Sequence record: PZ445454.1
Origin: a phage
Reading direction: 5' to 3' (one strand)
Length of the DNA stretch: 64,000 bases
Positions 8,730 through 19,274 of this stretch are shown in pieces (position 1 is the stretch's first letter; the number at the start of each line of letters is the position of its first letter). A program made the translations under genes and the position numbers. The notes under the pieces are model-generated. The model was not told the DNA's origin, searched no databases, and saw nothing but the letters and a program-made list of their open reading frames with translations.

Positions 8730-10082
8730 ATGTGGAATCCAATTGTTAATGTAGATATTACATTGAACACCGCAGGAACTACAAGAGAAGGTTTTGGTTT
8801 GCCACTATTCTTAGCTTCAACAGATAACTTTGAAGAAAGAGTGCGTGGTTACACTTCCTTAACTGAAGTTGCTGAAGATTTCGATGAGAATACTGCTGCA
8901 TATAAGGCTGCTAAACAACTTTGGAGTCAGACTCCTAAAGTAACTCAGCTTTATATCGGTAGACGCGCTATGCAGTACACTGTATCAATTCCTAATGCTG
9001 TTACTGAAAGTACAGATTACTCAATTACTGTAGCTGCTGGCGGTGGAATTTCTCAACCATATCAGTATACAGCGCAAGCTGAAGACACTGCTGAAAACGT
9101 GTTGCAACAGTTTAAAACACAGATTGAAGCTGACCCAACAATCAAAGATAAGGTTTCTGTGAATGTAACTGGTAGCAATGGCTCTGCCACAATGATTATT
9201 ACCAAAGCTGGTGATAATGACTTTGTGAAAGTAACAACCACAGCACAGACTGTATATATTGCAAGTACAACTGCTGATACAGCATCAACTGCTCTGGCAG
9301 CTATCGAAGCTTACTCTACCGACTGGTATTTCATTGCAGCAGAAGACAGAACTCAACAGTTTGTCTTAGCAATGGCTTCTGAGATTCAGGCTCGTAAGAA
9401 AATCTTCTTTACAGCTAACTCCGATGTAACAGCCCTACAAGGTACAGAGTTAGCCAGTGCAAATGATGTTCCAGCACAGCTTGCTAAGAATATGTACACT
9501 CGTACAGTTTGCTTGTGGCATCACGCAGCAGCAGAAGATTATCCAGAGATGGCATACATTGCTTATGGTGCTCCATATGATGCAGGTTCAATTGCTTGGG
9601 GTAATGCTCAGCTAACTGGTGTAGCAGCTTCTCTACAACCATCTAATCAGAGACCTCTGACAAGTATTCAGAAGTCTGCTTTAGATGTACGTCACTGTAA
9701 CTTTATTGACCTTGATGGTGGTGTTCCAGTGGTTCGTAGAGGGATTACTTCTGGTGGGGAATGGATTGATATCGTCCGTGGTGTTGACTGGTTAGAATCA
9801 GACCTGAAAACTTCTCTGAGAGACTTGCTAATTAACCAGAAGGGTGGTAAGATTACTTATGATGATACTGGTATTACCCGTATTCGTCAAGTCATTGAAA
9901 CCTCTCTGCAAAGAGCAGTCAACAGAAACTTCCTGTCATCTTACACAGTTAATGTTCCTAAAGCCTCTCAAGTTGCTTTAGCAGACAAGAAAGCGCGTAT
10001 CCTGAAAGACGTTACCTTCGCAGGTATCTTAGCAGGGGCTATCTTGGATGTTGACTTGAAAGGTACAGTGGCTTACGAATAA
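8730..10082 (+). CDS. putative tail sheath protein
   Basis: 450-aa ORF in the canonical sheath-tube-chaperone-tape measure order; no motif confirmed. Confidence 0.45.
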   Translation: MWNPIVNVDITLNTAGTTREGFGLPLFLASTDNFEERVRGYTSLTEVAEDFDENTAAYKAAKQLWSQTPKVTQLYIGRRAMQYTVSIPNAVTESTDYSITVAAGGGISQPYQYTAQAEDTAENVLQQFKTQIEADPTIKDKVSVNVTGSNGSATMIITKAGDNDFVKVTTTAQTVYIASTTADTASTALAAIEAYSTDWYFIAAEDRTQQFVLAMASEIQARKKIFFTANSDVTALQGTELASANDVPAQLAKNMYTRTVCLWHHAAAEDYPEMAYIAYGAPYDAGSIAWGNAQLTGVAASLQPSNQRPLTSIQKSALDVRHCNFIDLDGGVPVVRRGITSGGEWIDIVRGVDWLESDLKTSLRDLLINQKGGKITYDDTGITRIRQVIETSLQRAVNRNFLSSYTVNVPKASQVALADKKARILKDVTFAGILAGAILDVDLKGTVAYE

Positions 10083-10097
10083 TAGAGGTAAATTGGA

Positions 10098-10544
10098 ATG
10101 GCTATGTATCAGCAATATTCCCCTAAAGACGTTGTATGTAGCTGGAACGGCATTGCTATTGAAGGCTTTGCTCCAGACTCATTCTTGCGTCTACAGAGAA
10201 CATCACCACTTGTGACACCAGTTGTTGGTGCAGGTGGTCAGGTTGCTCTGACACGAAATGCAGACAAGACAGGTACTATTGAGATTGAGCTAATGCAGAC
10301 TTCTCTCTCTAACCAGATGCTTTCTGCAATTCAAGCTAAACAAGACAATATGGAACTTGAAGAAGATATCTCTTCTAACTTCGTAATCTACGACCCATCA
10401 GGCTCTGTTCTGGCAACTGGTATTAACGCTTGGTTGCAGGAGTTACCACAGATTGAACTTGGTCGTGACCAGAACTCTAAAACTTGGATTTTTGGTTGTG
10501 AGAAGTTAGACTACACTTCTACAATTCCAGCGTCAAGTGTTTAA
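10098..10544 (+). CDS. putative tail tube protein
   Basis: 148-aa ORF after putative sheath, followed by strong terminator. Confidence 0.45.
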   Translation: MAMYQQYSPKDVVCSWNGIAIEGFAPDSFLRLQRTSPLVTPVVGAGGQVALTRNADKTGTIEIELMQTSLSNQMLSAIQAKQDNMELEEDISSNFVIYDPSGSVLATGINAWLQELPQIELGRDQNSKTWIFGCEKLDYTSTIPASSV

Positions 10545-10554
10545 TAAATCCTAT

Positions 10555-10590
10555 AAGGGGGAGACTTTAAAAGGTCTTCCCCTTTTTTGT
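10555..10590 (+). terminator. rho-independent terminator
   Basis: hairpin gggggagac/gtcttcccc followed by TTTTTTGTTTC. Confidence 0.6.
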
Positions 10591-10617
10591 TTCTTTTAAA
10601 AGTATTAAGGAATCACA

Positions 10618-11016
10618 ATGAAAACAGAATCTAGAGTAATTAATGGTAAGAAAGTAAATATCGTTCTGCTTGGGGCAAGAGATGGTATTAAAATGTCTAT
10701 GAAGTTGGGTAAAATTGTTGTTCCAACTTTTGCACAGATGCTGTCAAGTCTGACTGACAAGGGTAAGAAGGAGGCTCCGATGGTTCCATTTAAAGAACTT
10801 GTTGAAGCTTGTTTTGACAGAATTGAAGAAATTAACCTTGAAGAGATGGCAACCCTGTTATTTCAAGGGGCAACTGTTGACGACTTCCCACTTAATATTG
10901 ATACGTACTTCCAAGCAAACTACGGTGAGTTCATTGATTACTTAGCATTTGCGCTGGAGGCAAACTTCGGAAGTTTTTTCGAAGCAAGCATTTTCAAAAG
11001 CCTAACTTCTCAGTAA
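10618..11016 (+). CDS. tail assembly chaperone (G-like)
   Basis: 132-aa ORF immediately upstream of tape measure gene; contains slippery site near 3' end. Confidence 0.5.
   Translation: MKTESRVINGKKVNIVLLGARDGIKMSMKLGKIVVPTFAQMLSSLTDKGKKEAPMVPFKELVEACFDRIEEINLEEMATLLFQGATVDDFPLNIDTYFQANYGEFIDYLAFALEANFGSFFEASIFKSLTSQ
10974..10980 (+). other. candidate -1 programmed ribosomal frameshift slippery heptamer T_TTT_TTC
   Basis: X_XXY_YYZ heptamer in frame of 10618..11016; -1 frame is open from here through ORF 11019..11258. Confidence 0.5.
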
Positions 11017-11018
11017 AC

Positions 11019-11257
11019 ATGGGTAACACTCTACAGACACCACTAACTGATGCTGCTGTAGAGGCAACCTATGAAGAAGCAGACGAGATGAAATTTGTGC
11101 TTGCTATTTATGGTATGGAAGGGTGTAAAGAAACACTTGACCAACTCTTTGCTATGACATTCTCTGATTTATTATCATTGAGACAATTTCTTGAAATTCA
11201 GAGGTCGTATAAAGAGGAAATTGCTTACAACGAACTTAGAAGAGCAGGAAAAATGTA

Positions 11258-11258
<1 letters not shown>
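11019..11258 (+). CDS. tail assembly chaperone frameshift extension (GT-like C-terminal part)
   Basis: 79-aa ORF in -1 frame relative to preceding chaperone ORF; open upstream back to the slippery site. Confidence 0.45.

Positions 11259-19274
<8,016 letters not shown>

What the first reader, a model, noticed from the sequence alone, without database searches (positions are those of the whole stretch)
10618..11258. Candidate -1 programmed frameshift joining the two tail chaperone ORFs upstream of the tape measure gene
Seen in sequence: the slippery heptamer T_TTT_TTC (10974-10980) lies in frame near the 3' end of ORF 10618..11016, and the -1 frame is open from that site through ORF 11019..11258. 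Established knowledge: a conserved -1 frameshift producing G and G-T chaperone isoforms precedes the tape measure gene in many tailed phages.
Basis: partly seen in the sequence, partly recalled or inferred. Interest (0 to 1): 0.45.

Follow-up and report, generated by a model that had tools for sequence, protein, structure and literature searches.

The report
Tail chaperone frameshift, already annotated
This is the standard programmed -1 ribosomal frameshift that makes a short and a long tail assembly chaperone ahead of the tape measure gene in a Felix O1-like phage; it is very probably real, but it is already annotated in close relatives, so it is ordinary.

Summary
T_TTT_TTC sits at 10974-10980 in the X_XXY_YYZ phase of ORF 10618-11016. 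The -1 frame is open from 10938 to the stop at 11256-11258.

The window is a Felixounavirus (97-98% nucleotide identity to many Felix O1-like myophages). The gene order is sheath, tube, chaperone, ORF2, tape measure.

Comparative evidence strongly supports a functional -1 frameshift:
- NNT-TTT-TTY is kept at the same site in 16 lineages that share under 60% amino-acid identity.
- One lineage that lost it has G_GGA_AAA plus a hairpin two codons downstream.
- The -1 extension (79-106 aa) is a conserved domain.
- ORF2's ATG has no Shine-Dalgarno sequence and is not conserved; it is absent in Kolesnikvirus.
- Synonymous variation in ORF1 collapses about 8-fold between the slip site and ORF1's stop.

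No downstream stimulatory structure was found. A strong internal Shine-Dalgarno-like GGAGG lies 13 nt upstream and is a plausible stimulator.

The fusion is already deposited as a joined CDS for phages Mushroom, Moogle and Michonne, and the -1 frameshift is described in genome announcements from 2015-2017. I found no experimental demonstration. Novelty: already known. Interest is low.

The parts
10618..11016 (+). ORF1: tail assembly chaperone, the short (G-like) 0-frame product, 132 aa, 14.8 kDa
   Evidence: Pfam PF21822 Phage_TAC_15, E=1.7e-19. PHROG 1613 tail assembly chaperone, E=2.9e-48. It has its own Shine-Dalgarno sequence, AAGGAA, anti-SD dG -6.1.
10956..10960 (+). Internal Shine-Dalgarno-like GGAGG, 13 nt upstream of the heptamer; candidate frameshift stimulator (inferred)
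   Evidence: Anti-SD duplex dG is -9.3 kcal/mol, in the top 0.4% of 14-nt segments of the window and stronger than most real ribosome binding sites nearby. A comparably strong SD-like element lies 11-14 nt upstream in 16 of 25 relatives, but it is absent in Kolesnikvirus, L037 and some others.
10974..10980 (+). Slippery heptamer T_TTT_TTC in X_XXY_YYZ phase of ORF1
   Evidence: Invariant in 31 unique close relatives: no variable site between 10966 and 10982. NNT-TTT-TTY is kept in 16 clusters below 60% aa identity. H_HH.U_UU.Y motifs are among the most efficient in E. coli (PMC4066793).
10980..11258 (+). -1 frame extension (T-like domain, 92 aa plus stop) read after the shift; it includes annotated ORF2 (11019-11258)
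   Evidence: Open frame. PHROG 4963 tail assembly chaperone, E=2.8e-55. Homologous -1 extensions of 79-106 aa occur in all relatives, with a shared Y..NKE[TS]L..M[TS]L motif. ORF1 third-position diversity is 0.027 in 10978-11007, against 0.15-0.33 in the body of ORF1.
10618..11258 (+). Whole recoded gene: join(10618..10980, 10980..11258), 213-aa long chaperone isoform, 24.2 kDa
   Evidence: The equivalent joined CDS is annotated in Mushroom and Moogle, and their product sequences are identical to my predictions.
11258..13486 (+). Tape measure protein gene (context); its ATG overlaps the stop of the -1 frame ORF (TAATG, 11256-11260)
   Evidence: Pfam TMP_3, E=9.9e-17. PHROG 4036, E=0. Sequence.
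10098..10544 (+). Tail tube gene (context), preceded by the sheath gene at 8730-10082
   Evidence: PHROG 280 and PHROG 205 tail sheath; Pfam KPP10_Orf10 and DUF3383.

Best explanation
The window is a Felix O1-like myophage. Between its tail tube gene and its tape measure gene lies one recoded chaperone gene. Most ribosomes translate ORF1 (10618-11016) to its stop and make a 132-aa chaperone. A minority slip back one base at T_TTT_TTC (10974-10980): the two tRNA-Phe on UUU and UUC re-pair with UUU and UUU. These ribosomes continue in the -1 frame to 11258 and make a 213-aa isoform carrying an extra C-terminal domain. By analogy with lambda G/GT, the common N-terminal domain is expected to coat the tape measure protein, and the extra domain to recruit the tube protein during tail assembly; neither ends up in the virion. 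The signal appears to be the heptamer itself, possibly helped by an internal Shine-Dalgarno-like GGAGG 13 nt upstream, with no downstream RNA structure.

Shown here: the anatomy, the conservation and the coding constraint. Inferred: that the event is ribosomal, its efficiency, the role of GGAGG, and the roles of the two domains.
For: - Context: sheath, tube, chaperone (Pfam Phage_TAC_15, E=1.7e-19), ORF2 (PHROG tail assembly chaperone), tape measure.
- The heptamer is in the correct phase and the -1 frame is open.
- T_TTT_TTC is conserved in Felixounavirus, Suspvirus, Mooglevirus, Kolesnikvirus and Arno162, and in IMG/VR contigs down to 27-35% aa identity. This includes loci found through the T domain alone, which avoids ascertainment by the slip-site motif.
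- In 16 clusters below 60% identity, the codon before Phe-Phe always ends in T (AGT, TCT, ACT or GAT) and the first Phe is always TTT. With window codon usage, P is about 2e-8. A nearby conserved Phe uses both TTC and TTT freely.
- L059 lost Phe-Phe but has G_GGA_AAA two codons downstream, then a 6-nt spacer and a 10-bp hairpin (-16 kcal/mol, z=-3.8).
- The -1 extensions are homologous.
- ORF2's ATG has no Shine-Dalgarno sequence (dG +0.7, against -5 to -12.6 for 14 neighbouring genes). It varies among close relatives, and no start codon exists at that position in phiEa21-4.
- Synonymous diversity in ORF1 falls from 0.15-0.33 to 0.027 between the slip site and ORF1's stop, as expected if both frames are translated upstream of ORF2's ATG.
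- U_UU.U_UU.Y is a high-efficiency motif in E. coli (PMC4066793).
- The same fusion is annotated in Mushroom, Moogle and Michonne and described in PMC4319497, PMC4591319 and PMC5543628.
Against: - I found no experimental detection of the fusion in any Felix O1-like phage. The Bas63 virion cryo-EM paper does not mention it, which is expected for a non-virion chaperone.
- There is no downstream stimulatory structure in this lineage (45 nt downstream: -3.2 kcal/mol, z=+0.34; no covariation). There is no Rfam match at the slip site.
- The SD-like element is missing in several lineages, and the conserved residues L-E-A or K/R-E-N could partly explain it.
- Most records, including Felix O1 RefSeq, annotate two separate CDSs.
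- Conservation of Ser-Phe-Phe is also a protein motif, so only the synonymous choices count as independent evidence.
Confidence: 0.9

Rival explanations
1. The same fusion protein is made, but by transcriptional slippage. RNA polymerase adds one extra U in the T6 run (10974-10979), and ordinary translation of that mRNA subpopulation then enters the ORF2 frame.
For: One inserted U gives exactly the same protein. Relatives have T6-T7 runs. A weak hairpin (10954-10970) just before the T run was flagged as terminator-like, and hairpin-assisted slippage is a known phenomenon (review PMC5009743).
Against: To my knowledge, productive slippage by E. coli RNA polymerase usually needs runs of about 8-9 or more; here the run is 6. 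The upstream hairpin is weak and is not conserved or significant across lineages (z from -2.0 to +0.3). L059 replaced the T run with G_GGA_AAA plus a spaced downstream hairpin, a ribosomal-type cassette with no homopolymer run. The strict X_XXY_YYZ phase is what a ribosomal mechanism requires, although the protein motif also fixes the phase.
Confidence: 0.04
2. There is no recoding. ORF2 is a separate 79-aa protein, translated from ATG 11019 by termination-reinitiation after ORF1's stop (TAA at 11014-11016), and the heptamer is only the coding of a conserved Ser-Phe-Phe motif.
For: Stop and ATG are 2 nt apart. Many database records annotate two CDSs.
Against: There is no Shine-Dalgarno sequence. 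The ATG is variable within close relatives and absent in Kolesnikvirus and other lineages, whose homologous domain has no start codon near its beginning. The distance from heptamer to stop varies from 34 to 100 nt, while the heptamer stays fixed. Synonymous choices are always slip-competent. Synonymous variation is suppressed upstream of the ATG. The slip site is relocated in L059.
Confidence: 0.04
3. The heptamer and the open -1 frame coincide by chance and have no biological meaning.
For: About 0.09 in-phase heptamers are expected in the overlap from the window's own rate.
Against: All of the comparative evidence above.
Confidence: 0.01

Closest known systems
Annotated tape measure chaperone frameshift of Felix O1-like phages: Salmonella phage Mushroom (AJF40599.1 / YP_009600435.1), Citrobacter phages Moogle (YP_009145710.1), Michonne and Mijalis
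   Same: It is the same gene, the same heptamer and the same -1 junction. The Mushroom fusion differs from the window's by 2 residues. My predicted fusions for Mushroom and Moogle are identical to the deposited proteins. The frameshift is described in PMC4319497, PMC4591319 and PMC5543628.
   Different: Nothing substantive. The window's exact 213-aa fusion sequence is not itself in the protein collection. Most sister records, including Felix O1 RefSeq, still list two separate CDSs.
Lambda G/GT tail assembly chaperone frameshift (Xu, Hendrix and Duda 2004, Mol Cell 16:11, as cited; described in PMC5009743)
   Same: Two overlapping ORFs lie directly upstream of the tape measure gene. There is a -1 shift near the end of the first ORF, giving a short and a long isoform that share an N-terminal domain. 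No strong stimulatory structure is evident.
   Different: The host phage is a myovirus, so the gene follows sheath and tube. The heptamer is T_TTT_TTC rather than lambda's G_GGA_AAG (own knowledge). The protein family is different (Pfam Phage_TAC_15). No sequence similarity to lambda G was tested or claimed.
P2 E/E+E' frameshift in the FETUD tail operon (own knowledge: Christie et al. 2002)
   Same: It is a myovirus example of the same arrangement between tube and tape measure genes, with a T-rich heptamer.
   Different: Homology was not tested here. The comparison rests on memory and is a lead, not a result.
E. coli dnaX -1 frameshift signal
   Same: An internal Shine-Dalgarno-like element about 10-14 nt upstream of the heptamer acts as a stimulator. 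Here GGAGG lies 13 nt upstream, within the 6-17 nt search range used in PMC4066793.
   Different: dnaX also has a downstream hairpin and uses A_AAA_AAG (own knowledge). Here there is no downstream hairpin, and the stimulatory role of GGAGG is untested.

Membership tests
G/GT-type programmed -1 frameshift of tail assembly chaperones | Two overlapping ORFs immediately upstream of the tape measure gene and downstream of the major tail (tube) gene | tested here: met
   Tube 10098-10544, ORF1 10618-11016, ORF2 11019-11258, tape measure 11258-13486.
G/GT-type programmed -1 frameshift of tail assembly chaperones | A slippery X_XXY_YYZ heptamer in phase with the upstream ORF, inside the region where the -1 frame is open | tested here: met
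   T_TTT_TTC at 10974-10980; -1 frame open from 10938.
G/GT-type programmed -1 frameshift of tail assembly chaperones | Slip site conserved among relatives beyond what the protein sequence requires | tested here: met
   16 of 16 clusters below 60% identity keep NNT-TTT-TTY. The site is relocated in L059. Synonymous variation is suppressed.
G/GT-type programmed -1 frameshift of tail assembly chaperones | The downstream ORF lacks its own translation initiation signals | tested here: met
   No Shine-Dalgarno sequence (dG +0.7). The ATG is not conserved, and there is no start codon at that position in phiEa21-4.
G/GT-type programmed -1 frameshift of tail assembly chaperones | The upstream ORF product belongs to a tail assembly chaperone family | tested here: met
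   Pfam PF21822 Phage_TAC_15, 71 bits against a cut-off of 22. PHROG 1613. No PDB relative by sequence.
G/GT-type programmed -1 frameshift of tail assembly chaperones | Both the short and the fused product are detected, at a fixed low ratio | not testable with these tools
   No experimental report was found in the searched literature.
G/GT-type programmed -1 frameshift of tail assembly chaperones | The short domain binds the tape measure protein, the long isoform's extra domain binds the tube protein, and both are absent from virions | not testable with these tools
   Inferred from lambda (PMC5009743).
dnaX-like SD-stimulated -1 frameshifting | A Shine-Dalgarno-like sequence 6-17 nt upstream of the heptamer that is conserved | tested here: inconclusive
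   It is present and strong in the window (dG -9.3) and in 16 of 25 relatives, but absent in Kolesnikvirus, L037, L051, L052, L053 and L056. It is confounded by conserved residues.
Structure-stimulated -1 frameshifting (hairpin or pseudoknot 5-9 nt downstream) | A stable, conserved RNA structure shortly after the heptamer | tested here: not met
   The 45 nt downstream fold at -3.2 kcal/mol, z=+0.34. The consensus fold is -0.88 kcal/mol with no compensatory pairs. No Rfam hit.

The most novel reading that the evidence does not exclude
In the Phage_TAC_15 chaperone family, the slip site is hard-wired into a conserved protein motif (NFxSFF). In most lineages it is driven not by a downstream RNA structure but by an internal Shine-Dalgarno-like element 11-14 nt upstream. 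Lineages that lose either element evolve a different cassette: G_GGA_AAA plus a hairpin in L059, and no SD-like element in Kolesnikvirus. This would give a natural series for studying how frameshift stimulators are exchanged while the product ratio is kept.
Probability: 0.35. Interest if true: 0.25.

Novelty: already known. Interest (0 to 1): 0.1.

Why it matters
The practical value is annotation. The long chaperone isoform should be annotated as join(10618..10980,10980..11258). Most Felix O1-like records, including the type phage's RefSeq entry, still list ORF2 as a separate hypothetical protein or mislabel it (for example as 'head closure protein'). Felix O1-like phages are used for Salmonella and E. 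coli typing and biocontrol, so correct tail-assembly annotation has modest value. Biologically it adds nothing new to the established G/GT paradigm, apart from a possible Shine-Dalgarno-type stimulator.

Tried and rejected
- Downstream stimulatory hairpin or pseudoknot: I folded 45-100 nt after the heptamer in the window and in 23 relatives and computed a consensus fold for 7 genera-level relatives. Nothing significant or covarying appears in the window lineage. The stable hairpin at 11018-11073 starts about 38 nt after the heptamer, too far for a canonical stimulator.
- Upstream hairpin plus T run acting as a transcriptional-slippage or terminator-like element (flagged): not significant and not conserved.
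- Rfam scan of 10500-11400: only sub-threshold matches on the terminator at 10500-10594.
- PDB sequence search and NCBIfam scan of the fusion: no informative hit.
- The search for related loci with the full 16-sequence T-domain alignment failed because no stretch was conserved enough. A 5-sequence subset worked.
- Literature search for experimental proof in Felix O1-like phages: only annotation-level statements were found.
- Structure prediction and the large protein searches were not run, because the Pfam and PHROG matches and the exact database identity already settle what the gene is.

Full report
**1. The observation**

- ORF1 is 10618-11016 (132 aa).
- ORF2 is 11019-11258 (79 aa) and lies in the -1 frame relative to ORF1.
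- TTTTTTC occupies 10974-10980. ORF1 codons start at 10975 and 10978, so the phase is T_TTT_TTC, the X_XXY_YYZ arrangement needed for tandem -1 slippage.
- The -1 frame is open from 10938 to the TAA at 11256-11258.
- A shift at the heptamer gives a 213-aa product of 24.2 kDa, against 14.8 kDa for ORF1 alone.

Taken alone this is weak evidence. In the window's 65 long ORFs, in-phase heptamers occur 64 times in 18,199 codons, so about 0.09 would be expected in the ~25-codon overlap. Even so, this is the only one of the 64 with a -1 extension of at least 30 aa, and the only in-phase T6 heptamer.

**2. What the locus is**

The window is a Felixounavirus. The segment 8700-13500 is 97-98% identical to many Felix O1-like myophages of Escherichia and Salmonella.

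Profile searches give the following gene order:

| Coordinates | Gene | Evidence |
|---|---|---|
| 8730-10082 | tail sheath | PHROG 205 |
| 10098-10544 | tail tube | PHROG 280 |
| 10618-11016 | tail assembly chaperone (ORF1) | Pfam Phage_TAC_15, E=1.7e-19 |
| 11019-11258 | ORF2 | PHROG 4963, 'tail assembly chaperone' |
| 11258-13486 | tape measure protein | Pfam TMP_3; PHROG 4036 |

This is the canonical position of the G/GT-type chaperone pair.

**3. Comparative tests of the frameshift**

(a) *Conservation of the heptamer.* T_TTT_TTC is present in the same phase, with a 92-94-aa -1 extension ending at the tape measure start, in Suspvirus, Mooglevirus, Kolesnikvirus (phiEa21-4) and Pectobacterium phage Arno162. 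The last two share only 39-44% chaperone identity with the window. In a blastn search, the only part of this region that still matches the Erwinia phages is a 41-nt stretch around the slip site, at 92.7% identity.

(b) *More distant relatives.* IMG/VR contigs down to about 27-35% identity carry T_TTT_TTC or T_TTT_TTT at the homologous NFxSFF position, with -1 extensions of 79-106 aa. The distance to the 0-frame stop varies from 34 to 100 nt. One of the two search patterns contained FFE, so I repeated the search using only the T domain. All new loci again had an in-phase heptamer.

(c) *Synonymous choices.* Across 16 clusters below 60% identity, the codon before Phe-Phe is AGT, TCT, ACT or GAT. 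It always ends in T, even when the residue changes between Ser, Thr and Asp. The first Phe codon is always TTT. With the window's codon usage (NNT for Ser 0.55; TTT for Phe 0.60), the chance of this is about 2e-8. A conserved Phe three codons upstream uses TTC and TTT interchangeably.

(d) *Compensation.* L059 has Ser-Ile-Phe instead of Ser-Phe-Phe. It carries G_GGA_AAA two codons downstream, followed by a 6-nt spacer and a 10-bp hairpin (-16 kcal/mol, z=-3.8).

(e) *The extension is a real domain.* The -1 extensions align as one family with a shared Y..NKE[TS]L..M[TS]L motif.

(f) *ORF2 does not look independently translated.* Its ATG has no Shine-Dalgarno sequence (anti-SD dG +0.7, against -5.1 to -12.6 for 14 neighbouring genes). 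The ATG varies among close relatives. phiEa21-4 has no start codon at that position.

(g) *Coding constraint upstream of ORF2's ATG.* Among 31 unique close relatives, diversity at ORF1 third positions is 0.15-0.33 through the body of ORF1. It falls to 0.075 in 10948-10977 and to 0.027 in 10978-11007. This is the pattern expected if the stretch between the slip site and ORF1's stop is translated in two frames. After 11019 the variable positions switch to the ORF2 frame. No site varies between 10966 and 10982.

**4. Mechanism**

The best-supported model is tandem -1 slippage of tRNA-Phe on U_UUU_UUC. In a systematic E. coli study, H_HH.U_UU.Y motifs are among the most efficient heptamers, and U_UU.U_UU.C is used by IS elements (PMC4066793).

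I found no downstream stimulator in this lineage:
- The 45 nt after the site fold at only -3.2 kcal/mol (z=+0.34).
- A consensus fold over seven relatives has no compensatory pairs.
- Rfam has nothing at the slip site.

A strong Shine-Dalgarno-like GGAGG (10956-10960) lies 13 nt upstream. Its anti-SD dG of -9.3 is in the top 0.4% of the window background and is stronger than most genuine ribosome binding sites nearby. Comparably strong elements sit 11-14 nt upstream in 16 of 25 relatives. This spacing is within the range searched for such stimulators in PMC4066793 and resembles the dnaX arrangement (own knowledge).

The GGAGG role is an inference only. The element is absent in Kolesnikvirus, L037 and several others, and the conserved residues L-E-A or K/R-E-N partly explain it.

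The functional roles are inferred from lambda (PMC5009743): the common domain coats the tape measure protein, and the extra domain recruits the tube protein.

**5. Rival explanations**

- *Transcriptional slippage* on the T6 run would give the same protein. The run is short. The small hairpin upstream, flagged, is neither significant nor conserved. L059's cassette is of the ribosomal type.
- *Independent translation of ORF2* by reinitiation is contradicted by points (c), (d), (f) and (g).
- *Chance* is excluded by the conservation.

**6. Comparison with what is known, and novelty**

GenBank and RefSeq already carry a joined CDS at this locus for Salmonella phage Mushroom and Citrobacter phage Moogle. 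The fusion sequences I predicted for those two phages are exact matches to AJF40599.1/YP_009600435.1 and YP_009145710.1. A 212-aa Michonne product is in the same cluster.

The genome announcements for Moogle, Michonne and Mijalis state that the tape measure chaperone uses a translational frameshift; Michonne's specifies the -1 frame, and the Michonne and Mijalis announcements cite Xu, Hendrix and Duda 2004.

Many other records, including Felix O1 RefSeq, still list two CDSs. I found no experimental demonstration in this phage group.

**7. Verdict**

The finding is real and correctly interpreted, but it is already known at the annotation level and is an ordinary member of a textbook class. Interest is low.

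Noticed in passing
window 10555-10584 (T tract to about 10594): A strong intrinsic-terminator-like hairpin (13 pairs, then TTTTTGTTTCT) lies in the 73-nt gap between the tail tube gene and the chaperone gene. Several relatives annotate a terminator here. It may lower transcription of the chaperone and tape measure genes relative to sheath and tube. The sub-threshold Rfam matches at 10500-10594 are to this hairpin.
   Followed up: partly
L059 1201-1245 (IMGVR_UViG_3300004097_002019): This distant relative lost the Phe-Phe T-run. It has G_GGA_AAA two codons downstream, then a 6-nt spacer and a 10-bp hairpin (-16 kcal/mol, z=-3.8). The slip site is relocated and the stimulator type is different within the same chaperone family.
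   Followed up: partly
L057 1197-1810 (IMGVR_UViG_3300035050_000006): This high-GC relative (24% identity) has NFGDLF instead of NFxSFF and no canonical in-phase heptamer in the last 50 codons. Yet a -1-frame ORF (1655-1810) appears, by eye, to resemble the T domain of L054. Its shift site, if any, was not found.
   Followed up: no
window 11018-11073: A stable hairpin (part of a -24.5 kcal/mol fold, z=-2.2) pairs the ORF2 ATG region (CAUGGGU) with ACCUAUG. It starts about 38 nt after the heptamer, too far for a canonical stimulator. It could further mask the ORF2 ATG. Conservation was not established.
   Followed up: partly
window 11256-11260: The stop codon of the -1 frame ORF overlaps the tape measure start codon (TAATG), so only ribosomes that have shifted frame terminate at the tape measure start. 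The tape measure gene also has its own AGGAAA Shine-Dalgarno sequence.
   Followed up: no
window 11545-11551: An in-phase A_AAA_AAG, the most shift-prone E. coli heptamer, lies inside the tape measure gene. Its -1 extension is under 30 aa, so it would give a truncated product at most. This is probably incidental.
   Followed up: no
database records for the same genes: Annotation is inconsistent. ORF2 is labelled 'head closure protein' in Salmonella phages SUT_S820 and SUT_S920, and the gene upstream of the sheath is labelled 'putative OHCU decarboxylase' in JLBYU32. A member of the same 90%-identity cluster as ORF1 is deposited under Staphylococcus hyicus (WP_252560994.1), and others under E. 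coli and Shigella assemblies. This suggests phage contamination or carry-over in bacterial assemblies.
   Followed up: no
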